From contig CBDDDW010000028.1 in assembly GCA_965226805.1 (NCBI GenBank), positions 398,109 to 462,108 of the forward strand: 64,000 nucleotides of DNA, given 5' to 3'. Positions 1 to 47,465 of this stretch are shown here, piece by piece; position 1 is the stretch's first letter; the number at the start of each line of letters is the position of its first letter. A program made the position numbers and the translations under genes. Under the pieces are notes generated by a model. The model was not told the DNA's origin and searched no databases. It saw only the letters and a list, made by a program, of their open reading frames with translations. The stretch comes from Dehalococcoidia bacterium. GTDB lineage: Bacteria > Chloroflexota > Dehalococcoidia > Lucifugimonadales > JAGWBF01.

Positions 1-321
1 CAGAGGACCCGCCAGGGTGGGGGTGAGATAGTCAGCTTGCTGAAGGCCGGCAGCGCCTACTACGCCCCTTCCGCCGCCATCGCCCAGATGGCCGAGGCAA
101 TATTACTGGACAAAAAGCGGATCCTGCCCTGCTCTGTCTATCTGGACGGCGAATATGGGATCAGGGGCTTGTATATCGGGGTTCCGGTCAAGCTGGGGGC
201 CAACGGGATTGAGGAGATCATCGAGATCAAGCTTACGGAAGGGGAGCGGGCTGCTCTCGATAAATCCGCTGCCAGCGTCCGCGAGTTGGTGGAGGTCCTG
301 CACAAGTCCGCCGCATCCTAG
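1..321 (+). CDS. mdh: malate dehydrogenase (LDH-like MDH family), C-terminal part; the 5' end lies upstream of the window
   Basis: Frame 1 is open from base 1 (..[64 protein letters not shown]). This is the typical C-terminal domain of LDH-type MDH. Stop TAG at 319-321. Confidence 0.85.
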
Positions 322-944
322 AGCAGAGTCCCTTCGCTCCGGCCTGGATTCTCCAGCCCCTGGTTGGCCCGAGCATAGGCCAGCTTGAAGATCTCGTATG
401 GTTGAGCGCCCGTGAATAGCTGGTTGCCTATGAGGAAGGCCGGTATTCCTCGAATGCCCAGATTGATGGCCTCCTGGTACTGGGTGGTCACAGCTTCCGT
501 GTAATAACCGGACGAGAGGCGATCCGACAACTCAGGCCAGTCCAAACCGCACTTTCCGGCAAGCTCCTCGTTCACTGCTAGATCGCCAAGGTCCTTACCA
601 TCTTCCCAGTATGCCTTATAGGCGGCAAGGTGAAAGGCGTCGAACTGGCCCTGCTGCTGGGCGTATTCAGTGGCCTCCAGGACGTACTTGGTATACGGCG
701 TGAAGGTTGAGCGGCGCATAACCAGCCCCGCCTCCTGGGCAGAGGTCCTCAACGGCTCGTTTAGCTGACCGTCCGACTCGCCCGGCTTAGGCGTTCGAGG
801 TGAGCCCTCTTTTGGAATGTCGGGCCGTAGAAAAAACGCCTTGCCCTCCACTGTGATGTCGTAGTCTTTCCTTAATCTGTCGATCCTGTCCAGGCCGATA
901 TAGCACCACGGTCAAATATAATCGTACCAGATGGTCGCATTCAT
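318..944 (-). CDS. DsbA/FrnE-like thiol:disulfide oxidoreductase with an in-frame TGA (912-914) at the first Cys of the CPWC motif; candidate selenoprotein, alternatively a point-mutated pseudogene
   Basis: The ORF-track product (318..851) matches a DsbA-family C-terminal region (..[24 protein letters not shown]..) but has no redox motif. The same frame continues upstream as ATG(944) [32 protein letters not shown] lies 3 nt upstream of ATG 944. Confidence 0.6.
880..898 (-). promoter_or_regulatory. candidate bacterial SECIS-like hairpin downstream of the in-frame TGA
   Basis: The mRNA reads UCGGCCU-GGACA-GGAUCGA. That is a 7-position stem with one C/A mismatch and two G-U pairs, and the loop starts GG. 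It begins 14 nt after the UGA. Folded by eye only. Confidence 0.3.
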
Positions 945-1025
945 TTCTCACCTGATTTATGCCGGTTTACGATTCCCAGTTTGGATACGCTCCTGCGAGA
1001 TACTATTGATTAATTAGGGTATGAT

Positions 1026-20447: not shown

Positions 20448-20458
20448 AAGTTGTTAAA

Positions 20459-20742
20459 GGCTGCGATGGAGACGAGTAGGCGGGCTTAGGCGCCTAGCGA
20501 GTCTGGAATGGTGTGAGCAGACACGCCGAACCCGGTGAAGATCCCTCCGGAGCTGTCAGCCGAACCCCTGGATGTGGCGAACCTCAGACGGGGCAGTAGG
20601 TTGGGCCGGGCTCATCGCCCGTTACCAACGATGGGGCATGTTAGTGCCCTGCTTGAGAGGCCTCTCGATATGTGAGGGGAATTAGGGTGGTACCGCGGGA
20701 ACGTTATAATCCCGTCCCTAAATGGGGACGGGATTATTTTTT
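20459..20742 (+). promoter_or_regulatory. T-box riboswitch leader upstream of ilvB (specifier not confidently assignable by eye)
   Basis: Stem I carries a GA/K-turn (GCGATGGAGA), an AGTA box, an AG bulge (TAGCGAG) and a distal loop (GAATGGTGTGAG). The canonical T-box sequence AATTAGGGTGGTACCGCG is at 20680-20697, followed by a terminator. Confidence 0.8.
20708..20742 (+). terminator. intrinsic terminator of the ilvB T-box leader
   Basis: AATCCCGTCCC-taaat-GGGGACGGGATT followed by ATTTTTT. Confidence 0.75.
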
Positions 20743-20811: not shown

Positions 20812-22512
20812 GTGATGAAACTCAACGGTGCAGACATTATCTGTGAGGCCCTTCTACGTGAAGGCGTGGACGTGGTCTTTGGCCACCCTGGGGGCGCCAT
20901 ATTGCCTCTCTATAACGCGCTTCATAAATACTCTCAAATACGCCACGTCCTGGTTCGTCACGAACAGTGTGCTGCTCATGGAGCCGATGGTTACGCTCGG
21001 GCCACCGGTAAGGTAGGGGTCTGTATAGCCACGTCAGGCCCTGGGGCGACTAACCTTATTACAGGGATCATGGGGGCCAAGGCCGACTCGGTGCCAATGG
21101 TAGCGATCACCGGACAGGTCAGTCGCTCTGCCATGGGTACGGAGGCTTTCCAGGAAGCCGATACCTGCGCCATGACGGCTCCCTGTACCAAGAAAAACTA
21201 CCTGGTCATGTCAGCCGACGACCTGGCGCCCACGATATACGAGGCATTCCGGCTGGCCCAGGATGGCCGTCCCGGTCCTACGCTGGTAGATGTCCCAAGG
21301 GACGTGCAGCAGGAGATAGCAGAGTTCAATTATTTGGAGGTTCCCCAGGCGACTCAGCCAAGACTCCTTGCGGAGACCGCGGCTGACTTGCCCAAGGCAG
21401 CTGGACTAATCAACCGAGCAGAAAGGCCCCTTATCATCGCAGGTCACGGAGTCCTGGCGTCCCATGCCTCGGATGATCTCAGGACGCTGTCGGAGAAGAC
21501 GGGGATACCTGTCATCAATACCCTCTTGGGGCTCAGCTCCTTTCCTAGGAATCATCCTCTCAGCCTTGGTATGCTCGGCATGCACGGTATGTACTGGGCC
21601 AACATAGCGGTGCAAAACTCGGACTTGATTATCGGGCTGGGTATGCGTTTCGATGACCGCATCACTGGACGGCCTGGAAGCTTCGCCCCCAACGCTGAGA
21701 TCGTTCACGTGGACATCGAGGCCTCTCAGATCGGTCGCAATATCCCAACGGGGGTTGGACTTGTGGGCGATCTGAAACCGGTCCTTAAGGCGCTGTTGCC
21801 GCTGGTTCACCACGTGGAGAGGCCCGGATGGTTGGAGCAGATAGACGTGCTGAGGAGGGAGCACCCGTCCCTAGAGATACCCCAGGGAACGGGCCTGCTC
21901 GCACAACATGTCCTTGAGGACTTGAACCGGCTGATCCAGGAAGGGGATGAGGTAATCGCGGTAACCGGCGTGGGCCAGCACCAGATGTGGGCCGCCCAGT
22001 ACCTTTTCTTTGATAGGGCCAACTCATTCATATCCTCTGGGGGTCTTGGGGCCATGGGGTATGAGATTCCAGCGGCCATGGGAGCGCAGATCGGCCGTCC
22101 GGAAGCTACCGTGTGGAGCATCGCGGGGGACGGGGGTTTTCAGATGACCCTTCAGGACCTGGCCACCATAGTCGAAGAGAAGCTACCGGTTAAGATCGCC
22201 CTGTTCAATAACGGGAACTTGGGTATGGTGCGGCAATGGCAGGAGCTTTTCTACGAGAAGCACTACAAGGCAATACCGATTCCGGGTCCGGATTACGTGA
22301 AATTGGCCGATGCCTATGGTTTCCCGGCCTTAAGGGTCACCACGAAAGAGGGGGTTATGCCAGCCCTGCGGGCTGCACAACAGCACCAGGGCCCATTTCT
22401 CATAGACTTCGTCCTCGACCCCCAAGAGAACGTCTATCCAATGGTGCCTACTGGAGCCTCGCTGGGCGAAACCGTGGAGGACCCTAGGATAAGGGTCGGC
22501 CCGAGGAGCTAA
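20812..22512 (+). CDS. ilvB: acetolactate synthase (acetohydroxyacid synthase) large subunit, biosynthetic type
   Basis: A ThDP enzyme: ..GADIICEALLREGVDVVFGHPGGAILPLYNAL..HEQCAAHGADGYARATGKVGVC..GLGAMGYEIPAAMGAQ..GDGGFQMT.. Confidence 0.9.
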   Translation: MMKLNGADIICEALLREGVDVVFGHPGGAILPLYNALHKYSQIRHVLVRHEQCAAHGADGYARATGKVGVCIATSGPGATNLITGIMGAKADSVPMVAITGQVSRSAMGTEAFQEADTCAMTAPCTKKNYLVMSADDLAPTIYEAFRLAQDGRPGPTLVDVPRDVQQEIAEFNYLEVPQATQPRLLAETAADLPKAAGLINRAERPLIIAGHGVLASHASDDLRTLSEKTGIPVINTLLGLSSFPRNHPLSLGMLGMHGMYWANIAVQNSDLIIGLGMRFDDRITGRPGSFAPNAEIVHVDIEASQIGRNIPTGVGLVGDLKPVLKALLPLVHHVERPGWLEQIDVLRREHPSLEIPQGTGLLAQHVLEDLNRLIQEGDEVIAVTGVGQHQMWAAQYLFFDRANSFISSGGLGAMGYEIPAAMGAQIGRPEATVWSIAGDGGFQMTLQDLATIVEEKLPVKIALFNNGNLGMVRQWQELFYEKHYKAIPIPGPDYVKLADAYGFPALRVTTKEGVMPALRAAQQHQGPFLIDFVLDPQENVYPMVPTGASLGETVEDPRIRVGPRS

Positions 22513-35309: not shown

Positions 35310-36329
35310 TCAGCGGTTTTGGACAGTTCTGGGTCCGAGAGATTGGGGTGAAGAAGCTCCTGGTTTGAGGGTTTCTCTGACCTCCTGATTGTACCGCCTC
35401 CGCCGGTCAAAAGTCTCTCGCTGTACCTCCTTCCTCTGGGCTAGAATTGTCTCCAGACGGCCTTCCAGCACGTCAGCCGGAGTTACAACCCTGAGCGCCT
35501 GATGATATCTTCGGTAGTTGTAGAACTCGACGAAGTCCCGGATGGCCGCCTCCAGGTCTTCCACCACCTCGTATGGCACCTGGTTAATGTCGTCTTTCAG
35601 GGTTCGGTGATATCTCTCCAGCGTCCCGTTGGTCTGAGGGTGATAGGGTGCTGCCAGGACGTGGCGAATGCCCACCACCCGCATGTACTCGCGGAAGGCC
35701 CGCGATACATAACCTGAGCCATTATCTGAGAGGAGCTTGGTCCGATCCTCCAGAGGTACATCAGTCATACCAGTAGAGTCAACAGCTTCCTGGACCACCT
35801 CTATGAGGGAGTTGGCCGTCATGTCCCGTTGCACCTTCCAGGCCAAGATGAACCGGGAGTAGTCGTCCATCACCGTCACGAGGTAGTAGTAGCCCCATCC
35901 CACTACACGGAAGTAGGAGGCATCGGTGGCCCACAGCTGGTGGGGCCCTGTGGTCTTGTGCTGGTACTCTTTGCTCGCTGCCAACTGGTATTCGATCCGT
36001 TTCACCAGACCCTCCCGTCTCAGAATACGATAGACTGTGGAGGCGGAGACCGATAGGCCTCTGTGGTCGGTGAGCGAAGCCGCCAACTGCCGGCTTCGCC
36101 AGGTCGGCATCCCACGGGCTGCCGCCAGCACTACTGCCTCCTCTTCTGGACGCAGGCGATTCCAGGGCCTCTCAGTTCCTTCCGTACCCTCCCAACTACC
36201 CTGCCGGTGCCTCCACCTCCACCAATAATACGTGCTCCTGGAAATGCCAAGCTCCCTGAGTCGCCTGTTCTTCCCTCTACCATGTCGCTCCACCTCAGCC
36301 ACGACCTTCGATTGTTCCACTACGCTCAT
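35310..36329 (-). CDS. IS3-family transposase OrfB (rve/DDE integrase core)
   Basis: ..LWATDASYFRV..YYYLVTVMDDYSRFILAW..LLSDNGSGYVS..YHPQTNGTLERYHRTLK.. It is in the -1 frame relative to OrfA, and that frame is open upstream through the A7 run. Confidence 0.9.
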   Translation of the reverse strand: MSVVEQSKVVAEVERHGRGKNRRLRELGISRSTYYWWRWRHRQGSWEGTEGTERPWNRLRPEEEAVVLAAARGMPTWRSRQLAASLTDHRGLSVSASTVYRILRREGLVKRIEYQLAASKEYQHKTTGPHQLWATDASYFRVVGWGYYYLVTVMDDYSRFILAWKVQRDMTANSLIEVVQEAVDSTGMTDVPLEDRTKLLSDNGSGYVSRAFREYMRVVGIRHVLAAPYHPQTNGTLERYHRTLKDDINQVPYEVVEDLEAAIRDFVEFYNYRRYHQALRVVTPADVLEGRLETILAQRKEVQRETFDRRRRYNQEVRETLKPGASSPQSLGPRTVQNR

Positions 36330-36730
36330 GCGACGGTGCCGTTGTCGTGTAGGGGCGGCAGAGCTGTTTTTTTGAAGCGGTGCAACTCCAGGGACAACTC
36401 ACCCACCAGCTGCTTCAGTTCTCTGTTCTCCCGCTTGAGCTGCTCTATCTCTTGCCGGGTCGCATCACGCACACTGTCCCGAGTCAACCTCTCCTTCCCA
36501 GCTTCCATGAACCCCTTCGTCCAGGCGTAGTAGGAGTGGGGTTTGATTCCTTCCCGTCGGCACAGGTCATTAACGGTAGTCTCCCGTCTGAACCCCTCCA
36601 AGACGATGCGGATCTTCTCTTCAGGGGTATACTTACGGCGGGTCGCTGCACGGACCTGACGCACGAAGCTTCGTGTCTCCTGGCTTCGCTCCTCAGCTTG
36701 GCTGGCCTGATCCTCTACCTGGGTCATCAA
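36326..36730 (-). CDS. IS3-family transposase OrfA (HTH plus leucine zipper)
   Basis: ..RRKYTPEEKIRIVLEGFRRETTVNDLCRREGIKPHSYYAWTK..IEQLKRENRELKQLVGELSLEL. The A7 slippery run is at 36367-36373. AAGGAG precedes the ATG. Confidence 0.85.
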   Translation of the reverse strand: MMTQVEDQASQAEERSQETRSFVRQVRAATRRKYTPEEKIRIVLEGFRRETTVNDLCRREGIKPHSYYAWTKGFMEAGKERLTRDSVRDATRQEIEQLKRENRELKQLVGELSLELHRFKKTALPPLHDNGTVA

Positions 36731-36742
36731 TGACTCCTTTCA

Positions 36743-38456
36743 CTAAGCCCGAATCCACCGAAGGACGGCCTTGGGGACAGTCCTTGAAGAAGCCATCGGG
36801 TGCTCCTCTGAATCTGGGATAATGGTTTTGGAACAGAAACCAGCCCGGAAACAAGGAGCACCCAATAGATGCTGCCACAGAACAAACCCGACCGTATCCG
36901 CATCCTCTTTGACGACCATCGCCTGGTGGCCAATGCCGGCCTGCTCCTGCCGGCCACCCTAGCCCGGCACCTGGGCCTGCGGGAACTCGTCGACCATCAC
37001 CTTGACCTCGGCGGAGCGCCGGGACGGGCGAACACTGGGGACAAGATGCTGACGCTGGTCGCTTCCGCGCTGGCAGGCGGCGACTGCATCGACGACGCCG
37101 ATGCGCTGCGCGCTGGTGGGACGGTCGGTGTTCTAGGCTGCGTGGTCAAGGCGCCATCCACCCTGGGGACCTTCCTGCGCAGCTTCCGGTGGGGGCATGT
37201 CCGTCAACTCGACCGCGTGAGCCGCCAGTTGTTGGCCCGGGCCTGGGCCGCTGGGGCCGGACCCGGCGACTCGCCCCTGACCATCGACCTGGACTCGACC
37301 ATCTGCGAGACCTATGGACTGGACAAGGAGGGAGCGCGCCACCACGGCTATACCGGCGCCCGCGGCTATCACCCGCTGCTGGCCATTGCCGCCGGCACCG
37401 GCGAGGTGCTGATGTCCCGGCTGCGCGAGGGCCGGGCCAACACCGCCCGTGGCGCCGCCCACTTCCTGCGTGAGACGGTGGGGCGGGTGCGCTACGGCGG
37501 GGCTAGGGGACAACTCACGGTGCGGGCCGACAGCGGCTTCTACGCCCACACTGTCGTTGCCGCCTGCCGGGAAATGGATGTCCGCTTCTCTATCACCATC
37601 CGCCAGCGCGCCAGCCTGCGGGACCTGATCGAGGCGATACCAGAGGAGGACTGGACTCCCATTCCCTACTGGATGGACGGCGCCGCCGATGTCGCCGAGA
37701 CGACTTACACCCCGTTCCAGACCAAGCCGGACGCCGCGCCGGTGCGGCTCATTGTCCGGCGGGTGAAGCCGACGCCCGGTTCCCAGCTCGCCCTCTTCGC
37801 CAGATACAGCTATCACGCCTTCATCACCGACCGCGATGGGGAGACGCTGGAACTGGAGGCCGATCATCGCCGCCACGCCGAGGTCGAGAACGCCATACGC
37901 GACCTCAAGTACGGCGTCGGGCTGAACCACATGCCGTCGGGGCGCTTCGCCGCCAACGGCGCCTGGCTGGCGGTCCAGGTGATGGCGCATAACCTGGCCC
38001 GCTGGACAGCCCGCATCGGCCTGGGTCAGCAGATCGTGACCACCAAGACCCTCAGGCGGCGGGTCTTCGCTCTGGTGGGACGGATCACCCGCTCGGCGCG
38101 CCGCCTCACTTTGCATCTCCCCCGGCGCTGGCCTTGGGAAACCCAGTTCAGTCGCGCCTTGGCCCGGCTGCAAGCCATTCCATTCCCGGCCTGACGGCCA
38201 GCCTGCAACTGACCCAACGTCCCCGCAATCTCGCGCCACCCCGGTCGCGAGAGTCCCCTGCTGCGTATCCTCTCGCCATCCCGCGCATCGCAACTCCCGC
38301 ATAGGGCCTTAGGGGCCCTGTGCGGCGCCTGAAGACCCTCCGCCGGCCTCCCATCTACCCCAAGACCCCAGGCCATCTCCCCTGTAGCTCCCTCACCCAC
38401 CCCCTTCCGCTGTCCTCACGCCGTCCATCCGTGTCCTTCGGTGGATTCGGGCTTAG
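36743..38456 (+). mobile_element. IS1380-family insertion sequence nested inside the IS3 element, 12 nt upstream of IS3 orfA
   Basis: Perfect 24-bp terminal IRs: CTAAGCCCGAATCCACCGAAGGAC (36743-36766) and its reverse complement (38433-38456). I found no clear target duplication. Confidence 0.85.
36869..38194 (+). CDS. IS1380-family DDE transposase
   Basis: 441 aa with ..LTIDLDSTICETYG..GYHPLLA..VRADSGFY..HAEVENAIRDLKYGVGLNHMPSGRFAANGAWLAVQVMAHNLARW.., typical IS1380 signatures. It is visibly more GC-rich than its flanks. Confidence 0.9.
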   Translation: MLPQNKPDRIRILFDDHRLVANAGLLLPATLARHLGLRELVDHHLDLGGAPGRANTGDKMLTLVASALAGGDCIDDADALRAGGTVGVLGCVVKAPSTLGTFLRSFRWGHVRQLDRVSRQLLARAWAAGAGPGDSPLTIDLDSTICETYGLDKEGARHHGYTGARGYHPLLAIAAGTGEVLMSRLREGRANTARGAAHFLRETVGRVRYGGARGQLTVRADSGFYAHTVVAACREMDVRFSITIRQRASLRDLIEAIPEEDWTPIPYWMDGAADVAETTYTPFQTKPDAAPVRLIVRRVKPTPGSQLALFARYSYHAFITDRDGETLELEADHRRHAEVENAIRDLKYGVGLNHMPSGRFAANGAWLAVQVMAHNLARWTARIGLGQQIVTTKTLRRRVFALVGRITRSARRLTLHLPRRWPWETQFSRALARLQAIPFPA

Positions 38457-38548
38457 GGTTAATCTACCCCTCTGAAGGAGCCTCTACCACCCCCAACCTC
38501 TTCGGTTTTCTAGGCCTCAATAGTGTCCAATTGCGCTGACACCCTACA

Positions 38549-39244
38549 CTCACGGGAGTAGTTACTGATGCTTCGCTGATACTCATGCTGCTTGCCCTGC
38601 AGCGCGGCCAGGTGGCGCGAGTCATCCCCATCTGGTACCTGGCTCCTCTTATGGTAGCGCCCATGGCGGCGACCTTTCTGGGGGAGCGTCTGACTCCTTT
38701 GGGCGCGATTGCCATTGTGATGGCCGTTGGTGGAGCCGTGCTGGTCACATGGCAAAAGAGTGAAAAGGGAGGGACCTTCGGGAACCCTGTCGTGTTTCCA
38801 CTGGCGGCGTCCGGGGCCGTCATGCTGGCCGTGTCATTTATCATGAGCAAATATTTCTTGGAAGAGGGTGGCTATTGGCGCTTTGTCGGAGCATTTCGGC
38901 TCGGTGTTGCGCTCCCTATAGTCGCGGTCGGACTATTGCCAGAGGTTAGGAAGAAGGCTTTGGCCGCGGTCCGTGATAGGAAGTTCCTCAGACCTTTTAT
39001 CGGACTTCAGATGCTCGTGTCCTGGACCTTCATTGTGAGATTCGCTGCGATTAGCACAGGACCCGTCTCTTTGGTGGCTGGCGTCAGCTCCATGCAGCCT
39101 ATTTTTGTGTTCTTGCTCGCTTTTGGTCTGGCGACAATGTTTCCCGCCAACTTCGGAGATTGGATTACCAAACGTACGATCTATACTCAGGTGGCAGGTA
39201 TCCTCGCCATCTCTGCCGCGGTGGTCATCATGTCGACGCAATAA
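38549..39244 (+). pseudogene. DMT/EamA-family transporter, C-terminal fragment (continuation of 35091-35300)
   Basis: In frame from the duplicated CTCACGGGA: LTGVVTDASLILMLLALQRGQVARVIPIWYLAPLMVAPMAATFLGERLT.., then a second EamA domain. Confidence 0.75.
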
Positions 39245-39440
39245 GAGGCCGCGATCATGGCTACTCCCAGCGAGTTAGGGGACACTGCGGGTACCGAGGC
39301 GACGCTGGACACCCTGTGCCGGCGGGTCGTCGTGTGTTATATTGTTGCCCCGTGGATATGGGCGGGGACCGCGCCGGCAGACCCTGACTCGGGGGCTGCG
39401 TCAGAGGTCGCCGACATCGACTCGAAGGGGGGAAGACGAC

Positions 39441-40040
39441 GTGACAACGCCATTGTCTATCGACCGAGACCGTACCGCAGTCCTTGTCCTTCACGTCCAG
39501 AACATCGTAGTGAGCGGGGAGACCTCCGGCCTCAAGTCGGGCCAACCCGAGCTCCTAGAGAGAATATCGTCTGTTCTGAACGGAGCGCGTGCGGCAGGGG
39601 TGCTGGTGATCTACCTGGTCGTACAGTTCCGTCCGGGCTACCCGGAAGTATCCGCCTCAAGCGGTCCTACGTTCACCTCCCTCAAGAGGACTAATCGCCT
39701 GTTAGAAGGAACGGAAGAAGCCCAGGTCCATCCAAAGGTGGCGCCACAGGCTGGGGATCTAGTGGTGGTCGGGCGCCGGACGGGCGCTTTCACCAACACT
39801 GAAATGGAAGGCCTGCTTAAGGCGAGAGGCATCACAGATCTGGTTCTCACAGGGATAAACACCAGCGGAACTGTGTTGACCACAGTGAGGTGGGCCGCGG
39901 ACATCGATTACGGACTGGTGGTACTGGAGGATTGCTGTGCCGATTCCGATGAGGAAGTCCACAGGGTCCTCACTCAGAAAGTGTTCCCCAAGCACGCCCA
40001 CGTAGCGACTTCCAAGGACTTCCTCAGCGCGATTAGTTGA
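39441..40040 (+). CDS. isochorismatase-family cysteine hydrolase
   Basis: VTTPLSIDRDRTAVLVLHVQN..DLVLTGINTSGTVLTTVRWAADIDYGLVVLEDCCAD. I chose the GTG start at 39441 because GGGGGGA lies 8 nt upstream. Confidence 0.8.
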   Translation: MTTPLSIDRDRTAVLVLHVQNIVVSGETSGLKSGQPELLERISSVLNGARAAGVLVIYLVVQFRPGYPEVSASSGPTFTSLKRTNRLLEGTEEAQVHPKVAPQAGDLVVVGRRTGAFTNTEMEGLLKARGITDLVLTGINTSGTVLTTVRWAADIDYGLVVLEDCCADSDEEVHRVLTQKVFPKHAHVATSKDFLSAIS

Positions 40041-40090
40041 GCTTGATGCCTCCATTCAGGAGATAGCCGCGATCAGTCAGATTAGCGGGG

Positions 40091-40228
40091 TGCGGAAGAA
40101 AGGGAGTGCAGAGGGCGAAGCCCCTTTGCCGGTCGGCCTTAGGCGGATGAGGGTGTCCCTCAGATGTAAATTCTTCCCCCCTCATGGCCAGGCCAGTCCT
40201 GAGCCTGCTGAAGGGAAGGGTTTTTCAG
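40091..40228 (-). repeat. intergenic repeat element, copy B (about 138 bp, inverted relative to copy A)
   Basis: Its reverse complement aligns block by block with 10196-10372 (see copy A). Confidence 0.7.
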
Positions 40229-40504
40229 TACCCTGCTAGGAGCGCGGACCGCACGTTTGTTGACAAACGTCACAATTTTGGTAAAATAGCCTGAACCTTG
40301 TTGGGCTGATTGCTCCCTCGTCAAGAGGGTGGTCACCTCGAAGCGGCCGGACATCCAGGGATCAAAGTTTCCTAGCAAGGTCTCTCAACTGGTGAGGAAA
40401 CGGGCTGATGTGGTAGTGGCCATACCATTCCCGATGCGACGTGGAAGGGACGCACAGCGCAGCAAGGGGATCACCGGACAGTCCGGCAAGTTGAAAGTGG
40501 GGAA

Positions 40505-41197
40505 ATGCAGGATCCAAAAGAGTCCCGTCATCGCATCCTACTAGCCCATGAGCAAACCCGTAAAGCCGTGGCTAACCTTCTCCACGCTCAGGTGCAGAGC
40601 CGGCTGCTGGTACTCGAATACTGGCTGAAAGATTGCCAGGAACTCATAAAAGACAGCAACCCGGATGTGCTTGCCCGCCTTCAGAACGCTCGAAATATCC
40701 TCGGCGAGATTATCGAGCAAGACCTCCGATACATCATCCGACATCTCTATCCTTCCATTATCCGAATAGGTCTTCCCAGCGCTCTCAATTCCCTGGCCGA
40801 GAGGTTCCACGGGGTATTCGAGGTTGAGATAGATATAGACGAGGCTGTGTCCGAGATTGAAGGGTCCATGCCTTCGGGACTCAGCGTCGACCTCCGATTA
40901 TCCCTGTACAGAGTGGTGGAGGAGGCGCTTACCAACGTCGCGAAACACTCCCAGGCCAGTAGAGTCAAGATAAGTCTGGGGTATTCTTCAGACACTGAGA
41001 TCTATCTGACCATTCAGGACGACGGCTGCGGATTCGATCCATCTGACGCTTCTCCGGGTACCGGCCACCTGTCGATGGAAGACTATGTGGAGGATCTGAA
41101 CGGGAAACTCCAAGTGGAGAGCGCGCCGGGCTCTGGCACCAGAGTAAAGGTGTGGGTCCCGTTACCGCAGGGCGTCCCGCAATTGGCGGAGGCCTAA
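40505..41197 (+). CDS. histidine kinase core only (HisKA_3-type DHp plus HATPase_c); no sensor or TM region and no adjacent response regulator
   Basis: DHp-like ..AVANLLHAQVQSRL.. and an ATPase domain (..VVEEALTNVAKHSQAS..IQDDGCGFD..GTGHLSMEDYVEDLNGKLQVESAPGSGTRV). Confidence 0.7.
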   Translation: MQDPKESRHRILLAHEQTRKAVANLLHAQVQSRLLVLEYWLKDCQELIKDSNPDVLARLQNARNILGEIIEQDLRYIIRHLYPSIIRIGLPSALNSLAERFHGVFEVEIDIDEAVSEIEGSMPSGLSVDLRLSLYRVVEEALTNVAKHSQASRVKISLGYSSDTEIYLTIQDDGCGFDPSDASPGTGHLSMEDYVEDLNGKLQVESAPGSGTRVKVWVPLPQGVPQLAEA

Positions 41198-41405
41198 TCC
41201 GGAGACTGGAGCTGTCTCAGACGGGCGTTCTCCTGTCACGTTCCCCATGTGGGAGTCCAATTTCGACAGCATCACCACCTGCCATTTCGATCCGGGCCCG
41301 GGAGCGCCCGGCCCCGCCTGTCCTAACGGCGATCCCCGTCGGTCCGTGTGGCCCCTTCCAGCTTAAAGGCAGCACAAAGCCTGCCGCTAAGGTTATACTC
41401 TAAGC

Positions 41406-42167
41406 ATGGTCGACTTCCTCCTTGTGCACGATATAGGCCAGGGCTCCTGGTGCTGGGGGAAGGTCTGGGGTCATCTCACTGCGCCAGTTAAGCACCCTCC
41501 AATTCTGCACGCCCGCAACCAAGTCGGGAAGGTAATAGCGATGGACCTCCCTCGCCAGGAAGCAGGCCCTCCGGAAGAGACGCCTGCGCTGACCATTCAC
41601 GACTTCATCTCAGCCGTAACTGATCAGGTCAAGGCTCAGGGTTTGCGGGACCTGATATTGGTAGGGCACGGCTTGTCGGCTCCAATAATCCTTCAGGCCG
41701 CATCACAGCTGGACGAGCCGCCCAAGAGGATAGTGCTCTTCGCCGGCATCATACCCGACGGCGGTAGAAGTGCCATGGACGCGCTTCCACCCCTGAACAG
41801 GCTGGGCCTGAAGATGCTCTTCAGAATGGGCCGCACTTCAAGATACGAATTCAGGCTCCCCAAAGTGATCATCACCAACTACTACTGCAACGGCATGGAC
41901 CCCTTTGAGGTTATACAAATTGTGGGGAGGTACAGGCCGATGCCGTTACAGCTTTTCCGTACCAAAATCGACCTCGGCGACCCCTCAGGTTTCTGTCCAG
42001 TCACATACGTGCCTCTAGGGCGGGACAGACTGCTGCGTCCAGATCTTCAGAAACGAATGGCGGACCGGCTGGGCGGAGTAGAGCTTGAGGAGGGATTGGA
42101 CTCCTGCCATCAGGTGATGATAGAGCGTCCGAGGCAGGTGGCGGACATCCTCTTGAAATACTTATAA
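41406..42167 (+). CDS. alpha/beta hydrolase fold protein (methylesterase-like) with an atypical nucleophile elbow
   Basis: FLLVHDIGQGSWCWGKVW..LILVGHGLSAP.., so GHGLS replaces the usual G-x-S-x-G. Confidence 0.65.
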   Translation: MVDFLLVHDIGQGSWCWGKVWGHLTAPVKHPPILHARNQVGKVIAMDLPRQEAGPPEETPALTIHDFISAVTDQVKAQGLRDLILVGHGLSAPIILQAASQLDEPPKRIVLFAGIIPDGGRSAMDALPPLNRLGLKMLFRMGRTSRYEFRLPKVIITNYYCNGMDPFEVIQIVGRYRPMPLQLFRTKIDLGDPSGFCPVTYVPLGRDRLLRPDLQKRMADRLGGVELEEGLDSCHQVMIERPRQVADILLKYL

Positions 42168-42365
42168 CTCCGGGCACGACGTCTGGATGCGCTCAGTCAC
42201 TTACGCCTCTGTTCCTTGCATTTAGCCAACGGCACTGACCCCTCACTCTACCGCTCTCCCGCCGGGCGATGGAGAGCAGGACGGTCGGGGGTGGTATAAT
42301 TTCCTAGAATACGGGATGTGATCGGCGCCGAGTCAGGGCGTCGGACGTCCGATTAGAGGATCCTC

Positions 42366-42602
42366 ATGGACGACCAGGAATTCCTCAGCAGGATAAAGGA
42401 AAAGATCGAGAGGCTATCCGGCACCGAGATACGCATTAATCTGGATGCCGTGGACCAAGACGCCAGCAGAGTAGACCTGGATGGTCACATACCGGAGGTT
42501 ACTTTGGGCTCCAATGTCCTCCGATACTCGGGCTTCGTCAGGATGTGTATCGAATATGCGGTGGCCTCTATCCGAGAGAGGCGGAAGCTAGGGAACCTCT
42601 GA
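42366..42602 (+). CDS. hypothetical small protein; its 3' end and stop codon are supplied by the IS5 element
   Basis: A 78-aa ORF. The IS5 left end (42592) lies 4 codons before the stop. Confidence 0.3.
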   Translation: MDDQEFLSRIKEKIERLSGTEIRINLDAVDQDASRVDLDGHIPEVTLGSNVLRYSGFVRMCIEYAVASIRERRKLGNL

Positions 42603-43793
42603 ACAACTCGGCGCAAGCGTGGATGGGCAGAGTGGTTCCGTTCTTTGGAGACGTTCAGGCATCTTTGTGACGTTCCAGGTCGTGGTTGAGGCGTTCAGAC
42701 CGTGTCTGTTGTGGCCTCGAAGCGGCTTTTCGGAGCCATCGCGGCTCCCCGGCCGTGATTTGCGCACTGCGCCCCTCTCATGCCGCCAGACGGCGCTCTG
42801 CCGTCATCAAGTTGGCCAGCCCCAGTAGCAATGCCAGCCGTTGCGCGTTCTTAGCCAACCCTCGGTAGCGCACCTTGGCGTAGCCAAAGCGCCGCTTCAC
42901 GTACAGGAACGGATGCTCCACTTTCGCTCTGACCGACGCTTTGCGCTTCTCCGCCAACGCCTCGTAGCTGCCAGGCTCCAGGTGCCGTCGCCGGCCGGGC
43001 CTCATCGCCACTCGCCACTCCACATCCAACTCTCGATTCTCCAACCGCTTGTCCACTCCCTGATACCCCGCATCCCCCCACACTCGTTTCTCTCCACCGT
43101 GCAGCAATCGGTGCGCTTCTGTCACATCATGCACGTTAGCTGGCGTCGTAGTCATGCTGTGTACCACTCCCGTCTCAGCGTCAGCGCCTACGTGTACTTT
43201 CATCCCGAAGCGCCACTCGTTCCCCTTCTTCGTCTGGTGCATCTCAGGGTCTCGCTCACCCGCACGATTCTTCGTCGATGACGGCGCCTCTATGATGCTC
43301 GCGTCCACGATCATCCCCTCCCGAAGCCGCAGTCCCTGGGACTCCAGATGACGGTTGATCTCCTCGAACAGACTCTGCCCCAACTCATGCTCTTCCAGCA
43401 GATGGCGGAAGTTCAGAATCGTCGTCTCGTCCGGCAGCGGGCCCGACAGCTTCAACCCTACGAACCGTCTCACCGACTCGACCTCGTAGAGCATGTCCTC
43501 CATACCAGGATCGCTCAAGTTGTAGAACAACTGCACGCAGTGTATCCGCACCATCGCCGACAACTCATATGGTCGACGGCCTCGGCCCGCCTTGGGATAG
43601 AACGGACGGATGCGCTCTTCCATCTGTTCCCACGGGATCAGAGCATCCATGCGCTCCAGGAATATCTCCCGGCGGGTCTTGCGCTTCTTGCTCTCGTATT
43701 CCAAGTCCGCAAATGTTGGCTGGTCCATCAATTATCTCCCCGAACACAGTGCTATTCTCTATGCTACTATGCCCAGACTTGTTCAGAGTATCC
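42592..43793 (-). mobile_element. IS5-family insertion sequence (1202 bp) with a 4-bp CTAG target duplication
   Basis: Left end GGAACCTCTGAACAACTCGG (42592-) versus the reverse complement of the right end, GGATACTCTGAACAAGTCTGG (-43793). CTAG is present at 42588-42591 and 43794-43797. Confidence 0.85.
42778..43731 (-). CDS. IS5-family DDE transposase
   Basis: ..QPTFADLEYESKKRKTRREIFLERMDALIPW..MVRIHCVQLFYNLSDPGMED..VDASIIEAPSSTKN..GMKVHVGADAETGVVHS..GDAGYQG..RAKVEHPF.. Confidence 0.92.
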   Translation of the reverse strand: MMDQPTFADLEYESKKRKTRREIFLERMDALIPWEQMEERIRPFYPKAGRGRRPYELSAMVRIHCVQLFYNLSDPGMEDMLYEVESVRRFVGLKLSGPLPDETTILNFRHLLEEHELGQSLFEEINRHLESQGLRLREGMIVDASIIEAPSSTKNRAGERDPEMHQTKKGNEWRFGMKVHVGADAETGVVHSMTTTPANVHDVTEAHRLLHGGEKRVWGDAGYQGVDKRLENRELDVEWRVAMRPGRRRHLEPGSYEALAEKRKASVRAKVEHPFLYVKRRFGYAKVRYRGLAKNAQRLALLLGLANLMTAERRLAA

Positions 43794-43838
43794 CTAGCAC
43801 GACGTAGGGGGCCAATCCATAGACCGCCTTGGCGAACA

Positions 43839-44540
43839 TCACCGCGACGGTGGACCACTGACCTGAGTCCGCAAGTCCCCCACCATCGCCACTGAGGGCT
43901 TGAGCGAAGCGAGGATAAGGCTGCTGACCACGACGCTCAGGCCGACGATGAAGAACCCTGCGCCGCCTAGGAGGAGGAGCGACAGTACCTTCGCGCTCAG
44001 GAACTGCCAGCGGCTGACACCTCTGGTCAAGGCCGTCCGTAGCGTGCCCCAGCCGTACTCAACCCCCATCGCGGACGCCGCCAGGATCATGATGAGCAGA
44101 ATTCCGAAGGAGTTGGCAACGCCGAGGCGATTGGAGAGACTGCTCGGAAGGACGAAACCCCCAAGGTAGAAGCCACGGCGCTTGGCGTACTGTTCAGCGG
44201 TCTGTTCGAGATCTTCTTCACAGCTCAGCTCACTCGCCCGTCTCTCCTCTACCGCCTCAAGGGCTCCCTGGCGGAACTCTTCCGGGATGAGTGCTAACTG
44301 GGAATCGACGTTGTCTTCTACTATATCGACGCATGTGATGCGGACCTCTCCGTTAGGTAGGTAGATGCCATAGAAGCCGCCTTCGTTGTCACTCTGCCCA
44401 AGGTCCTGGTACTGGGAGTAGCTGCCCCATACGCCGAGCTGGGTGAGGACGACAACGACGGCCAGGAGTATCCACGGCATCCACCGCTTGCGGACTTTGA
44501 ACAACTCCCAGCGGGTGAGGCGTAGCACCTGGGCTATCAC
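43839..44540 (-). CDS. ABC-2-type transporter permease
   Basis: MIAQVLRLTRWELFKVRKRWMPWILLAVVVVL.. with TM segments. Its start overlaps the stop of the upstream ATPase gene by 4 nt. Confidence 0.65.
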   Translation of the reverse strand: MIAQVLRLTRWELFKVRKRWMPWILLAVVVVLTQLGVWGSYSQYQDLGQSDNEGGFYGIYLPNGEVRITCVDIVEDNVDSQLALIPEEFRQGALEAVEERRASELSCEEDLEQTAEQYAKRRGFYLGGFVLPSSLSNRLGVANSFGILLIMILAASAMGVEYGWGTLRTALTRGVSRWQFLSAKVLSLLLLGGAGFFIVGLSVVVSSLILASLKPSVAMVGDLRTQVSGPPSR

Positions 44541-45435
44541 TCGGCGTCCTTCTTTTCGTCGCCCGTGATGTCCAGGAAGTACTGCTCCAACGACATCTCA
44601 TCGGCCGCCATCTCCGTGACATAGACCTCAGACCGGCCTAGGGCCGTGCTCAGCTCGGACGACCGTTCGCCCGGGGCCTCTACTATCACCGACTCGCCCT
44701 TCATCTTTACTTCCCCGACCCACTCCAGCGCCGAGAGCACCTCGACGGCCTTCGCGTTGTCTGTGGTACGCAAGCGCACCCGCTCACCTGCTCGAGAATG
44801 CACCAGGTCGGCGACCTTGCCCTGGGCGATGAGCTTGCCCTTCGAGAGGATGGCCACGCTGTCGCACACCTGCTCGACCTCGTGCAGCAGGTGGCTCGAC
44901 AGTAGCACCGTGCGCTCTCCCGTACCTCTGCCATGCCCGCAGGGTCCATGCCGTTGGTCGGCTCGTCCAGGAACAGGAGGTCGGGATCACCAAGGAGCGC
45001 GTAGGCCAACCCCAAGCGCTGCTTCATGCCCAGGGAGTAGGTGCGAAACTGGCTCTTCGCGCGGTCAGCGAGCCCCACCTTGTCAAGCAGGTTGTCCAGC
45101 TCCTGGCGATCACCCCTACCGGAGATGCCCTGGAAGTAGGCGAGGTTGTCTCGGCCCGACAGGTACGGATAGAAAGAAGGGGTCTCGACGATGGCGCCGA
45201 CGCGATGGAGTGCATCCTGATGCGGTATACGACCACCGAACAGGCTGAAGCTGCCCGCTGTCGGCTTCACCAGCCCGAGCAGCATTCCCATGGTCGTCGT
45301 CTTGCCCGACCCGTTTGGCCCCAGAAGCCCGAAGACATGGCCTCGCGGCACCTCCAGCGAGAGGTCGTCCACGGCCAGGATGTCTCCGTATCGCTTAGTC
45401 AGCCCATCCGTCTGGACAACTGAATCACTGTTCAT
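44537..45435 (-). pseudogene. ABC transporter ATP-binding protein disrupted by a short out-of-frame internal deletion
   Basis: The first ORF carries Walker A (GPNGSGKTT), the signature motif (LGMKQRL) and Walker B (LLFLDEPTNGMDPAGMAEVRE), then turns to nonsense. The second ORF (frame shifted) resumes at ..ERTVLLSSHLLHEVEQVCDSVAIL.. About 9-10 residues expected between them are missing. I chose the ATG at 45435 because GAAAGGAGG precedes it. Confidence 0.8.
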
Positions 45436-45802
45436 ATCGTTCCTCCTTTCGGGCAGCATGTTTCAGTGCTGACCAGAGCCTCGGCACGATTGCGTCGCAG
45501 AAATCGGACAGGGTTAGAGGAGGGGGAAATCAACTGTCCCCGGAGCCGGATGTTGGCTCACGCCCCTCGACCACTCTAGAGCCATGCTACAGGGTGCCGG
45601 GACCTGTGCGGCCGTCAGGGATACGCCCGAAGGAGAAAGCCGGTAGGGGAACTACGAAGACCGGACCCTGTTTTCCCCAGGAAGAAGCGGCAGACCCAAC
45701 GGCATCATCTCATTCCAGGGTGTCCCTGTCCATCAGATTTTATGTTCCGGAATGGTAAGATGATGGTCTATGGGCGCTTCCTAAAATGACAAAGACGCCT
45801 AG

Positions 45803-46033
45803 GTGAATGAAGTGGCTGTGAACATCACAAGGGTTGAGAGGATGAGGCGGTCTCTCCGCAAGATCGGTTACGTGATCGGCGGATTGGCCTTCGCCTACCT
45901 GCTGTTGGGTACATTTGCGCTCCTGGTACAGCGAGAGACATGGCCCATCGCATTCCTGAAGCTGGTGGCGGGCGGGTCGCTTGTGTGCGCATTCGGGGTA
46001 ATCCTCTCCTATGTGCGGAAGCCGGAGGAGTGA
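45803..46033 (+). CDS. small two-TM hypothetical protein whose stop codon is the first three bases of IS3 copy b
   Basis: A 76-aa ORF (..IGYVIGGLAFAYLLLGTFALLV..LVAGGSLVCAFGVILSYV..). The TGA at 46031-46033 is the IS terminus. Confidence 0.35.
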   Translation: MNEVAVNITRVERMRRSLRKIGYVIGGLAFAYLLLGTFALLVQRETWPIAFLKLVAGGSLVCAFGVILSYVRKPEE

Positions 46034-46109
46034 GGTGGTCCCCAAAATTTGGACAGGTGGCTAAGAGAGAGTCCCGCTCCTAAAATAGGACGGAAAGAAG
46101 GAGCAGGAC

Positions 46110-47326: not shown

Positions 47327-47465
47327 TGATGGGGTCCACTTGAGAGTTCTTCATCAAGAGGCTCAGGCCAAAGGGCAAGACCACAAACGCGCAGCTTCTG
47401 GCGTGAGATAGGATGGGAAAAACGGACACCAAAGTCGGATAAGATAGAGCGACGGAGGTGTCAGT

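What the first reader, a model, noticed from the sequence alone, without database searches (positions are those of the whole stretch)
318..944. In-frame TGA at the nucleophilic Cys of the CPWC motif in a DsbA/FrnE-like oxidoreductase: a selenoprotein candidate missed by the ORF track
The ORF track starts this gene at an internal GTG (851) and yields a DsbA-like C-terminal body with no redox motif.

Reading the same minus-strand frame further upstream gives ATG(944) AAT GCG ACC ATC TGG TAC GAT TAT ATT TGA(914-912) CCG TGG TGC TAT ATC GGC CTG GAC. That translates as [10 protein letters not shown]-[TGA]-PWCYIGLD. FrnE/DsbA-type proteins begin ..D..CPWC(Y/F)(I/L)G, so the TGA sits exactly where the attacking Cys of CxxC belongs. 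This UxxC arrangement is the classical Sec/Cys-pair signature.

Supporting details:
- ATG 944 has an AGGTGA Shine-Dalgarno 3 nt upstream, whereas GTG 851 has none.
- A hairpin UCGGCCU-GGACA-GGAUCGA (880-898) starts 14 nt after the UGA. Its loop begins GG about 20 nt from the UGA, which fits the loose bacterial SECIS rules.

DsbA-like selenoproteins have been described in selenoproteome surveys, so the class is not new. Even so, standard pipelines would call this gene truncated.

The alternative is a TGT/TGC-to-TGA point mutation (a pseudogene) or a base-call error.
Basis: partly seen in the sequence, partly recalled or inferred. Interest (0 to 1): 0.75.

Follow-up and report, generated by a model that had tools for sequence, protein, structure and literature searches.

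The report
Selenocysteine-containing FrnE/DsbA-like oxidoreductase gene
This is a real but mis-called gene for a cytoplasmic disulfide oxidoreductase whose active-site cysteine is replaced by selenocysteine, encoded by an in-frame UGA; it belongs to a selenoprotein family known since 2005, so it is a correct but unsurprising find.

Summary
On the minus strand, ATG 944 opens a 208-codon frame with TGA at 914-912, giving [19 protein letters not shown], a full-length DSBA domain (PF01323, 4.3e-33).

The TGA is not a mutation or a sequencing error:
- It is identical in two independent read-set assemblies.
- It is TGA in all 36 Dehalococcoidia/Chloroflexota orthologs fetched (32-79% identity).
- It is TGA in 118 of 120 metagenome contigs carrying the motif.
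- Asgard archaeal homologs, one bacterial ortholog (P0118) and Deinococcus FrnE have Cys at this position.

A hairpin 13 nt downstream fits the published bacterial SECIS model. Its arm codons are the most synonymously frozen in the gene, it shows compensatory changes, and the Cys forms lack it. The window's own hairpin is the weakest copy and is not significant on its own (p=0.28).

TGA is a normal stop for 15 of 41 long ORFs in the window. No selA, selB, selD or tRNA-Sec lies in the window, so the machinery could not be tested for this genome. Relatives carry other selenoprotein genes, and the literature lists Dehalococcoidia among the most selenoprotein-rich bacteria.

Verdict: a genuine new member of the known "DsbA-like, UxxC" selenoprotein family, truncated in nearly all public database entries retrieved. 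Interest is low to moderate.

The parts
318..944 (-). Complete coding sequence of the selenoprotein: 208 codons plus the TAG stop. It is an FrnE-like DsbA-family thiol-disulfide oxidoreductase with Sec at residue 11.
   Evidence: Translation. PF01323 at 4.3e-33 covering profile positions 4-190 of 191. FrnE 5CNW at 7e-18. The same 208-codon architecture is found in the closest relatives L181 and L182.
948..953 (-). Shine-Dalgarno-like AGGTGA, 3 nt before the ATG. Its last three bases (950-948) are an in-frame TGA that rules out a longer N-terminus.
   Evidence: Read directly from the sequence. Conserved as GGTGA in L181 and L182.
942..944 (-). ATG start codon, 10 codons upstream of Sec.
   Evidence: It is the only start codon between the upstream stop (950-948) and the Sec codon. 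It is shared by L001, L002, L004, L005, L006, L011, L181 and L182.
912..914 (-). In-frame TGA, read as the selenocysteine codon (residue 11).
   Evidence: TGA in 36 of 36 bacterial orthologs and in 118 of 120 metagenome contigs. TGT or TGC in the Cys forms. Identical in two independent assemblies.
903..914 (-). Redox motif U-P-W-C (residues 11-14), equivalent to the 22-CPWC-25 motif of FrnE.
   Evidence: Alignment to FrnE and SCO1869. In the model of the Cys ortholog, the equivalent Cys caps the N-terminus of helix alpha1.
880..898 (-). Candidate bacterial SECIS hairpin. The 5' arm is UCGGCCU (898-892), the loop is GGAC (891-888) and the 3' arm is AGGAUCGA (887-880) with a bulged A. The loop starts 20 nt after the UGA.
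   Evidence: Centroid fold. Family-level support: 92.6% and 85.7% of cells paired against 58% or less for slid registers. Pair 21-31 is CG 61, GC 12, AU 2. The hairpin-arm codons have the lowest synonymous entropy in the gene. Synonymous-recoding null: family median -10.0 against -4.8 kcal/mol. The window copy alone gives p=0.28.
435..449 (-). G-I-P-A-F segment (residues 166-170) holding the conserved proline of the thioredoxin-fold cis-Pro loop.
   Evidence: The Pro is invariant in 37 of 37 sequences. It aligns to GVPFF of FrnE.
318..851 (-). The truncated 177-aa ORF (GTG start) that gene callers report in place of the full gene.
   Evidence: The same truncated product is on record in two public assemblies. 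Of the top 120 database relatives, 119 cover only 63-88% of the query and start at varying internal codons.

Best explanation
The gene at 944-318 (minus strand) encodes a 208-residue cytoplasmic FrnE-type member of the DsbA family. The N-terminal, nucleophilic residue of its CxxC active site is selenocysteine, giving the motif U11-P-W-C14.

**Translation (inferred from the standard bacterial mechanism).** Ribosomes start at ATG 944. At UGA 914-912, SelB bound to GTP and Sec-tRNA(Sec) is recruited by a SECIS hairpin inside the coding sequence (898-880). The apical loop begins GG, 20 nt after the UGA. Sec is inserted and translation continues to TAG 320-318.

**Protein function (inferred from FrnE).** Sec11 sits at the N-terminal cap of helix alpha1 of a thioredoxin fold with a helical insertion. 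It attacks substrate disulfides, or other oxidised thiols, and forms a mixed selenenylsulfide. Cys14 resolves this intermediate into an intramolecular Se-S bond, which a cellular reductant then re-reduces. The protein lacks the C-terminal CxxxxC tail that regenerates Deinococcus FrnE, so regeneration must use an external partner.

**Shown here:**
- The conserved Sec/Cys column.
- A conserved reading frame on both sides of the UGA.
- RNA-level constraint on the hairpin.
- The FrnE-like fold of the Cys ortholog.
- TGA is otherwise a normal stop codon in this genome.

**Inferred, not shown:** actual Sec insertion, the presence of selABCD in this genome, and the catalytic role and substrates.
For: **Domain and active-site alignment**
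- PF01323 is matched full length once the 31 upstream codons are included.
- The TGA aligns with Cys22 of FrnE CPWC, with TGT in five Asgard loci and with Cys in the bacterial ortholog P0118.

**Conservation of the TGA**
- TGA in 36 of 36 Dehalococcoidia/Chloroflexota genomes at 32-79% identity, with WYDY[IV]-U-PWCY intact.
- 118 TGA against 2 Cys codons among 120 metagenome contigs found with a pattern that allowed TGA, TGC or TGT.
- Synonymous variation upstream of the UGA shows that this stretch is translated.
- Two independent assemblies are 100% identical over the region.
- TGA ends 15 of 41 long ORFs in the window, so the genetic code is standard.

**Hairpin**
- It fits the published bSECIS constraints (PMC13188914).
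- Leu14 CTG 36/36, Gly13 GGC 35/36 and Val17 GTC 31/33 are the three most frozen codon columns in the gene.
- Compensatory pairs are present.
- 71% of 104 sequences beat synonymous recoding at p<=0.05.
- Cys forms lack it: 0 to -5.8 against a median of -10.0 kcal/mol.

**Fold**
- The Cys ortholog models at pLDDT 86. The best PDB matches are FrnE (TM 0.76) and SCO1869.

**Sec use in related organisms**
- Relatives carry other Sec genes: a PrdB-like gene adjacent in L017, L021 and L025, and a Prx-like gene in L141.
- Dehalococcoidia MAGs with 46-49 selenoproteins are documented (PMC13326102).
- The family is a described selenoprotein family (PMC1088965, PMC1794560, PMC13188914).
Against: - No selA, selB, selD or tRNA-Sec was found in the window or in 1.65 Mb of related DNA. 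The one SelB-like hit is BipA. The machinery is therefore unverified for this genome.
- The window's hairpin is the weakest of the 37 copies from the window and genome loci. Its local energy of -5.2 kcal/mol misses the -7.5 criterion, although the 60-nt MFE is -9.9. It is not significant alone.
- RNAalifold finds only 6 pairs with negligible covariation energy on 37 sequences, and no consensus on 104 sequences.
- Much of the stem is invariant, so it is uninformative about structure.
- No other selenoprotein gene was found in the window.
- There is no experimental evidence of selenium incorporation.
Confidence: 0.88

Rival explanations
1. Pseudogene. A TGY-to-TGA nonsense mutation inactivated a Cys-type FrnE gene, and the frame downstream is a decaying relic.
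For: A single-base change from TGC or TGT gives TGA. The window's hairpin is weak. No Sec machinery was seen in the window.
Against: - The same TGA occurs in 36 of 36 species and 118 of 120 metagenome contigs, with intact frames of about 190-208 codons.
- The closest relatives, at 98% and 82% identity, keep the same 208-codon frame, and the differences seen upstream of and next to the UGA are mostly synonymous.
- The hairpin codons are under extra constraint.
Confidence: 0.03
2. Sequencing or assembly error at 912-914; the true codon is TGC or TGT.
For: None beyond prior possibility.
Against: Two independent public assemblies from separate runs (ERR14231558, ERR14231557) are 100% identical over 161 nt including the TGA. 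L181, at 98% identity, also has TGA.
Confidence: 0.005
3. The functional protein is the short form. It starts at an internal codon such as GTG 851 and has no redox motif. The upstream ten codons are a separate leader or are untranslated.
For: Gene callers predict it. Redox-inactive DsbA-like domains exist; Deinococcus has a DSBA-like protein with a single conserved Cys (PMC8945050).
Against: - Internal starts are not conserved. Database entries begin at different positions: MEGKAF, MREEYNV, MGLERVD, MRRSTF.
- There is no SD before GTG 851.
- The short form would lack strand beta1 and helix alpha1 of the fold.
- WYDY[IV]-U-PWCY[IV]GL is the most conserved segment of the family.
Confidence: 0.03
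4. The UGA is decoded, but not (or not only) as Sec. Possibilities are Cys or Trp insertion by near-cognate read-through, or this lineage has lost Sec decoding and tolerates low-level read-through.
For: The machinery is untested for this genome. The window's SECIS is the weakest copy among the window and genome loci.
Against: - A site-specific, hairpin-associated UGA at a Cys column is the defining signature of Sec.
- The bulged-A hairpin variant is retained across the window's sub-clade at 82% aa identity.
- Related genomes carry additional Sec genes.
- TGA is used as an efficient stop elsewhere in the window.
Confidence: 0.05

Closest known systems
DsbA-like selenoprotein family ('DsbA-like protein form 1', UxxC, COG2761/PF01323). 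Sources: Zhang, Fomenko & Gladyshev 2005 (PMC1088965); 2006 genome survey (PMC1794560); 2026 review (PMC13188914).
   Same: Same Pfam/COG domain. Sec lies at the first position of the UxxC redox motif. There are Cys homologs, and a bSECIS-type hairpin sits directly downstream of the UGA.
   Different: - This copy comes from an uncultured Dehalococcoidia lineage, whereas the earlier reports covered Sargasso Sea reads, Anaeromyxobacter, Desulfovibrio and Desulfotomaculum.
- I could not compare it with the published reference sequences (AACY01178397, NIP15863.1), so identity of the subfamily is inferred from domain and motif only.
- In this clade Sec is almost fixed (118:2).
FrnE (DR_0659) of Deinococcus radiodurans, PDB 5CNW/5CO3. 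A cytoplasmic disulfide isomerase/reductase.
   Same: - It is the closest solved structure by sequence (7e-18) and by fold (TM 0.76 to the Cys ortholog).
- The CP(W/F)C motif sits at the same position.
- There is no signal peptide.
- The cis-Pro loop G(V/I)P is conserved.
   Different: - Sec replaces Cys22.
- About 29% sequence identity to the Cys ortholog P0118.
- 208 residues against 260.
- It lacks the C-terminal 239-CxxxxC-244 tail that regenerates the FrnE active site. Some FrnE homologs also lack this tail (PMC8945050).
E. coli fdhF-type bacterial SECIS and the consensus bSECIS model.
   Same: The hairpin lies inside the ORF just after the UGA. The apical loop is small and begins with G (GG or GU). 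UGA-to-loop spacing is 20 nt, within the 16-37 nt range. A bulged nucleotide is tolerated.
   Different: There is no sequence similarity, and the stem is shorter (7-10 bp). The window copy falls below the -7.5 kcal/mol criterion when only the hairpin is folded. SelB binding is untested.
Periplasmic DsbA (E. coli), part of the DsbA/DsbB oxidative folding system.
   Same: Thioredoxin fold with a helical insertion, and a CxxC-type motif at the N-terminus of helix alpha1.
   Different: No signal peptide, since only 10 residues precede the active site. The motif is UPWC, not CPHC. No dsbB is nearby. It is expected to act as a cytoplasmic reductase or isomerase, not as an oxidase.
Asgard archaeal DsbA-like proteins (PMC11227280).
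   Same: They are homologous at 35-38% identity. The five Asgard loci fetched here have Cys (YICPFCY) at the same column. That paper reports two Sec-containing DsbA-like sequences in Lokiarchaeia/Helarchaeales.
   Different: The archaeal Sec forms use 3'-UTR SECIS elements. The ones fetched here are Cys forms and have no coding-region hairpin.

Membership tests
Bacterial selenoprotein gene (UGA recoded as Sec) | The in-frame UGA aligns with Cys in homologs (Sec/Cys pair). | tested here: met
   FrnE Cys22. TGT in Asgard loci L035-38 and L040. P0118 has CPWC. There are 2 Cys forms among 120 metagenome contigs.
Bacterial selenoprotein gene (UGA recoded as Sec) | The reading frame is conserved and under purifying selection on both sides of the UGA. 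| tested here: met
   WYDY[IV]-U-PWCY is found in 36 genomes, with synonymous variation at Tyr, Asp and Ile codons upstream.
Bacterial selenoprotein gene (UGA recoded as Sec) | [quoted passage not shown] | tested here: met
   - Loop 3-7 nt, stem about 6-10 bp, 20 nt spacing.
- Median energy -10.0 kcal/mol.
- G in the first two loop positions in 114 of 117 sequences.
- Frozen synonymous sites in the arms.
- Compensatory pairs.
- Beats the synonymous-recoding null.
- Caveat: RNAalifold gives no consensus on 104 sequences.
Bacterial selenoprotein gene (UGA recoded as Sec) | The same bSECIS criteria applied to the window's own copy. | tested here: inconclusive
   The geometry fits: 7 bp plus a bulge, GGAC loop, 20 nt spacing. 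The hairpin-only energy is -5.2 kcal/mol and the 60-nt MFE is -9.9. It is not better than shuffles (z +0.7) or synonymous recodings (p=0.28).
Bacterial selenoprotein gene (UGA recoded as Sec) | selA, selB, selD and tRNA-Sec are present in the same genome. | not testable with these tools
   Only 64 kb of the genome is available. None is in the window or in the related loci. Indirect support: other Sec genes in relatives, and selenoprotein-rich Dehalococcoidia reported in PMC13326102.
Bacterial selenoprotein gene (UGA recoded as Sec) | UGA is otherwise a stop codon, so the recoding is site-specific and not a reassigned genetic code. | tested here: met
   15 of 41 long ORFs end in TGA. GlmS, for example, ends ...VTVE-TGA.
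DsbA-like selenoprotein form 1 (PF01323, UxxC) | A DSBA domain above the Pfam gathering score, with Sec at the first position of the CxxC motif. | tested here: met
   115.1 bits against a cutoff of 25.6, covering profile positions 4-190 of 191. The motif is U11-P-W-C14.
FrnE subfamily of DsbA (cytoplasmic) | A CP(W/F)C motif near the N-terminus and no signal peptide. | tested here: met
   The motif is UPWC at residues 11-14, with only 10 residues before it. Relatives have a hydrophilic leader of 24 residues or fewer. No formal signal-peptide predictor was run.
FrnE subfamily of DsbA (cytoplasmic) | FrnE-like three-dimensional fold and the cis-Pro loop. | tested here: met
   Tested on the Cys ortholog P0118: pLDDT 86, and the top PDB matches are FrnE entries 5CO3, 5XWH and 5CNW at TM 0.73-0.76. 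The Pro of G-I-P is invariant. The window protein itself could not be submitted for prediction.
FrnE subfamily of DsbA (cytoplasmic) | A C-terminal CxxxxC tail that regenerates the active site. This is present in many FrnE homologs but not all. | tested here: not met
   The only Cys/Sec residues are 11, 14 and 132, and Cys132 is not conserved. Per PMC8945050, S. roseofulvus and D. maricopensis FrnE also lack the tail.
Periplasmic DsbA/DsbB oxidative folding system | A signal peptide, a CPHC-type motif and a DsbB partner. | tested here: not met
   There is no leader. The motif is UPWC. No DsbB-like gene is among the 30 window ORFs scanned.

The most novel reading that the evidence does not exclude
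This Dehalococcoidia/Chloroflexota clade could be an obligately Sec-dependent, tail-less FrnE subfamily (Sec:Cys = 118:2). It would work as a dedicated selenenylsulfide redox carrier for other selenoenzymes. In three genomes it lies immediately upstream, on the same strand, of a PrdB/GrdB-family 'selenoprotein B' gene. That would suggest a thioredoxin-like electron-donor role in a non-clostridial Stickland-type or related reductase system.
Probability: 0.1. Interest if true: 0.5.

Novelty: new member of a known kind. Interest (0 to 1): 0.3.

Why it matters
Practically, this is an annotation problem. Of the top 120 database clusters of this subfamily, 119 are N-terminally truncated and lack their active site. 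No NCBIfam model exists that would let annotation pipelines call the Sec codon; the only hit is a weak 37-bit match to an unrelated (seleno)lipoprotein model.

Biologically, it adds a well-supported case of near-fixed Sec use in a cytoplasmic FrnE-type oxidoreductase across a large, uncultured and environmentally abundant bacterial class. It also provides a clean example of a SECIS hairpin constraining synonymous sites inside a coding region.

It does not change what is known about selenoproteins.

Tried and rejected
**Sec machinery**
- tRNA-Sec search in the window and 36 loci (ARAGORN), then in all 180 loci: none found.
- tblastn with E. coli SelA, SelB and SelD against the window and 1.65 Mb of related DNA: only EF-Tu and one hit that turned out to be TypA/BipA.

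**RNA structure**
- Rfam gathering and permissive scans: no SECIS family match.
- A lower stem pairing nt 5-9 with nt 45-49: 74% paired and no covariation, so rejected.
- RNAalifold on 37 sequences gave only 6 pairs with about zero covariation energy.

**Genomic context**
- Conserved gene neighbourhood or operon partner: conserved only within sub-clades.
- Other selenoprotein candidates in the window: none convincing. The ORFs next to the three most gene-like read-through candidates hit fumarase/aspartase, EamA and PD40 families, but the read-through extensions themselves were not tested.
- Promoter and terminator scan around the gene: nothing.

- BSepDB supplementary tables are not held, so I could not check whether the relatives' MAGs are listed there.
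Full report
**Observation.** The minus strand reads AGGTGA (953-948), GAA, ATG (944-942), then AAT GCG ACC ATC TGG TAC GAT TAT ATT TGA (914-912) CCG TGG TGC TAT ATC GGC CTG GAC. It continues in frame to TAG at 320-318. The conceptual product is [10 protein letters not shown]-[TGA]-PWCYIGLD..., 208 residues long. The mechanical ORF list gives only the 177-aa piece from GTG 851. An in-frame TGA at 950-948 means ATG 944 is the only start for the long form.

**What the protein is.** With Cys substituted for the stop, the product matches Pfam DSBA (PF01323) at 4.3e-33 over profile positions 4-190 of 191. The 31 codons upstream of GTG 851 are therefore part of the domain.
- The closest solved structures are Deinococcus radiodurans FrnE (5CNW, 7e-18) and Streptomyces SCO1869.
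- In the FrnE alignment, IWSDIACPWCYIGKRRFE pairs with [18 protein letters not shown]. The TGA therefore falls on the first Cys of the CPWC motif.
- A natural full-length Cys ortholog (P0118, 48% identical, VWYDYICPWCYVG) models with pLDDT 86 and pTM 0.81. Its layout is strand beta1, then C24-P-W-C27, then helix alpha1, which places the Sec-equivalent residue at the N-terminal cap of the helix. Its best PDB matches are FrnE entries at TM 0.73-0.76.
- Only ten residues precede the active site. Relatives have at most a short hydrophilic leader. The protein is therefore cytoplasmic, like FrnE.
- It has no C-terminal CxxxxC tail. The only Cys/Sec residues are 11, 14 and a non-conserved 132.

**Is the TGA real and conserved?**
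- The identical truncated product is on record in two independent assemblies of separate sequencing runs. The 161 nt around the TGA are 100% identical to the window in both.
- A scan of one genome per species returned 53 loci. All 36 bacterial loci whose match spans the active-site column are Dehalococcoidia or Chloroflexota MAGs at 32-79% identity. Every one has TGA at this codon with WYDY[IV]-TGA-PWCY intact. Five Asgard archaeal homologs have TGT.
- A metagenome scan used a pattern that allowed TGA, TGC or TGT at this codon.
- The window's nearest relatives (98% and 82% identity) have the same SD, ATG, TGA and 208-codon frame, with synonymous differences upstream of and next to the UGA.
- In the protein database, 119 of the 120 best relatives cover only 63-88% of the query. 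They begin at assorted internal Met, Leu or Val codons, which is the footprint of gene callers stopping at a Sec codon.
- TGA terminates 15 of 41 long ORFs in the window. The genetic code is therefore standard and the recoding is site-specific.

**The SECIS candidate.** Count nucleotides from the U of UGA. Nucleotides 17-23 pair with 29-35, and often 16 pairs with 36. The apical loop starts at nt 24-25, which are G-G and invariant in the first set of 37 sequences. In most relatives this is a 9-10 bp stem, for example GUCGGCCUG-GAG-CGGGUCGAC at -13.9 kcal/mol. This fits the published bSECIS constraints (PMC13188914, Fig. [quoted passage not shown]

Evidence that this is more than coding-sequence conservation:
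- Among all conserved degenerate codon columns in the gene, the three with the lowest synonymous entropy are the ones forming the arms. Leu14 is CTG in 36/36 (0.00), Gly13 is GGC in 35/36 (0.09) and Val17 is GTC in 31/33 (0.16). Most other conserved Gly, Leu and Val columns score 0.56-1.0.
- On 104 distinct sequences, 85.7% of cells pair, against 58% or less in slid registers. There are 24 double-change cells against 11.7 ± 2.5 in shuffles (0 of 500 shuffles reach it). Pair 21-31 is CG 61, GC 12 and AU 2.
- L042 has a different peptide at this position (IDSVRVE) yet keeps all seven pairs, with a GGUCA loop.
- Against a synonymous-recoding null, the family median is -10.0 against -4.8 kcal/mol, and 71% of sequences reach p<=0.05.
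- Cys forms have no in-register hairpin: 0 to -5.8 kcal/mol.

Caveats on the hairpin:
- RNAalifold finds only six pairs with negligible covariation energy on 37 sequences. It finds no consensus on 104 sequences, because the family uses two registers, a perfect stem or one with a bulge.
- Much of the stem never varies, so it carries no information about structure.
- A putative lower stem is unsupported.
- The window's own copy has G31 changed to A (Val to Ile), which gives a bulge. At -5.2 kcal/mol it is the weakest of the 37 copies from the window and genome loci. It is not significant alone (z +0.7; p=0.28). The same variant is retained in L181 and L182, so it appears to be tolerated.

**Sec machinery.** No tRNA-Sec, SelA, SelB or SelD is in the window, which carries housekeeping genes, an IS-rich stretch and a recombinase. 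None is in 1.65 Mb of related DNA either, and the single SelB-like hit is TypA/BipA. This criterion cannot be tested from 64 kb.

Indirect support comes from three sources:
- In L017, L021 and L025, the gene immediately downstream of the Sec-DsbA gene is a PrdB/GrdB-family 'selenoprotein B' homolog. It has its own in-frame TGA (TT-U-PRC) and a hairpin with a GGU loop. It scores 187 bits on TIGR04483, and 65.7 bits on TIGR01918 against a cutoff of 65.45.
- L141 carries a Prx-like U-GTC lipoprotein.
- BSepDB lists Dehalococcoidia MAGs with 49 and 46 selenoprotein genes among the ten richest bacteria (PMC13326102).

**Mechanism.**
- Shown: the Sec/Cys column, the conserved frame, the constrained hairpin and the FrnE-like fold.
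- Inferred from established knowledge of bacterial Sec insertion (SelB-GTP-Sec-tRNA(Sec) binding a coding-region SECIS): Sec is inserted at UGA 914-912.
- Inferred from FrnE biochemistry (disulfide isomerase and insulin reductase activity in vitro; mutant sensitive to Cd and diamide; Cys22 forms a disulfide with Cys244 of the C-terminal tail; PMC8945050): Sec11 attacks substrate disulfides, and Cys14 resolves the mixed selenenylsulfide. Because the CxxxxC tail is absent, re-reduction must use an external partner.

**Comparison and novelty.** 'DsbA-like protein, COG2761, UxxC' was described as a selenoprotein family from the Sargasso Sea in 2005 (PMC1088965). It was then found in a few sequenced genomes (PMC1794560) and is listed as 'DsbA-like protein form 1' in a 2026 review (PMC13188914). 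Two Sec forms are also reported in Asgard archaea (PMC11227280).

This gene is therefore a new member of a known kind. What is mildly notable:
- Sec is almost fixed in a large Dehalococcoidia/Chloroflexota clade.
- The active site is missing from nearly all public database entries retrieved for this clade.
- No NCBIfam model covers the subfamily.

**Verdict.** Confidence that this is a genuine selenoprotein gene is 0.88. Interest is 0.3.

Noticed in passing
L017:10668-11588(+), L021:5686-6606(+), L025:10668-11585(+): A PrdB/GrdB-family 'selenoprotein B' homolog lies immediately downstream of the Sec-DsbA-like gene, on the same strand, in three related Dehalococcoidia MAGs. It has its own in-frame TGA (VVIGTT-U-PRCHQS) and a strong hairpin with a GGU loop 18 nt after the UGA. 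This may be an operon of two selenoprotein genes.
   Followed up: partly
L141:5578-6309(+): A lipoprotein-signal AhpC/TSA (Prx-like) gene with an in-frame TGA in an LFYRGFF-U-GTC motif and a downstream hairpin. It sits on a metagenome contig that also carries the Sec-DsbA gene.
   Followed up: partly
window 20454-20722 (+), upstream of ORF 20812-22512: A T-box leader (Rfam RF00230, 97 bits against a gathering score of 93) lies directly upstream of a TPP-dependent enzyme that resembles the acetolactate synthase large subunit. This suggests tRNA-sensing control of a branched-chain amino-acid biosynthesis gene.
   Followed up: no
window 35310-48640: An IS-rich stretch with three rve-type integrase ORFs (35310-36329, 46391-47326, 47780-48640) and two DDE transposases (36869-38194, 42778-43731).
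   Followed up: no
window 62642-63990: A serine recombinase gene (62653-63990, minus strand; Resolvase, Recombinase and Zn-ribbon domains) overlaps tRNA-Met (62642-62716, plus strand) on the opposite strand at the window edge. This may be an integrated element at the tRNA gene that runs off the window.
   Followed up: no
window 318-321: The selenoprotein gene and the convergent malate/lactate dehydrogenase gene (37-321, plus strand; cut by the window start) overlap at their stop codons by a few bases. The called genes overlap by 4 nt in L056 and L182.
   Followed up: no
protein database hits P0001-P0120: Of the 120 closest database clusters of this subfamily, 119 are N-terminally truncated at varying internal start codons and lack the active site. 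NCBIfam has no model for the subfamily. The only hit is 37 bits to NF041057, the Rcas_1661 (seleno)lipoprotein family.
   Followed up: yes
L181:15873-17924 and L182:13021-15078 (close relatives, just beyond the window's left edge): About 3-5 kb downstream of the selenoprotein gene, past mdh and an isocitrate/isopropylmalate dehydrogenase, lies a roughly 685-aa Thioredox_DsbH (PF03190) thioredoxin-domain protein. It is another redox protein in the neighbourhood, and any functional link is unknown.
   Followed up: no
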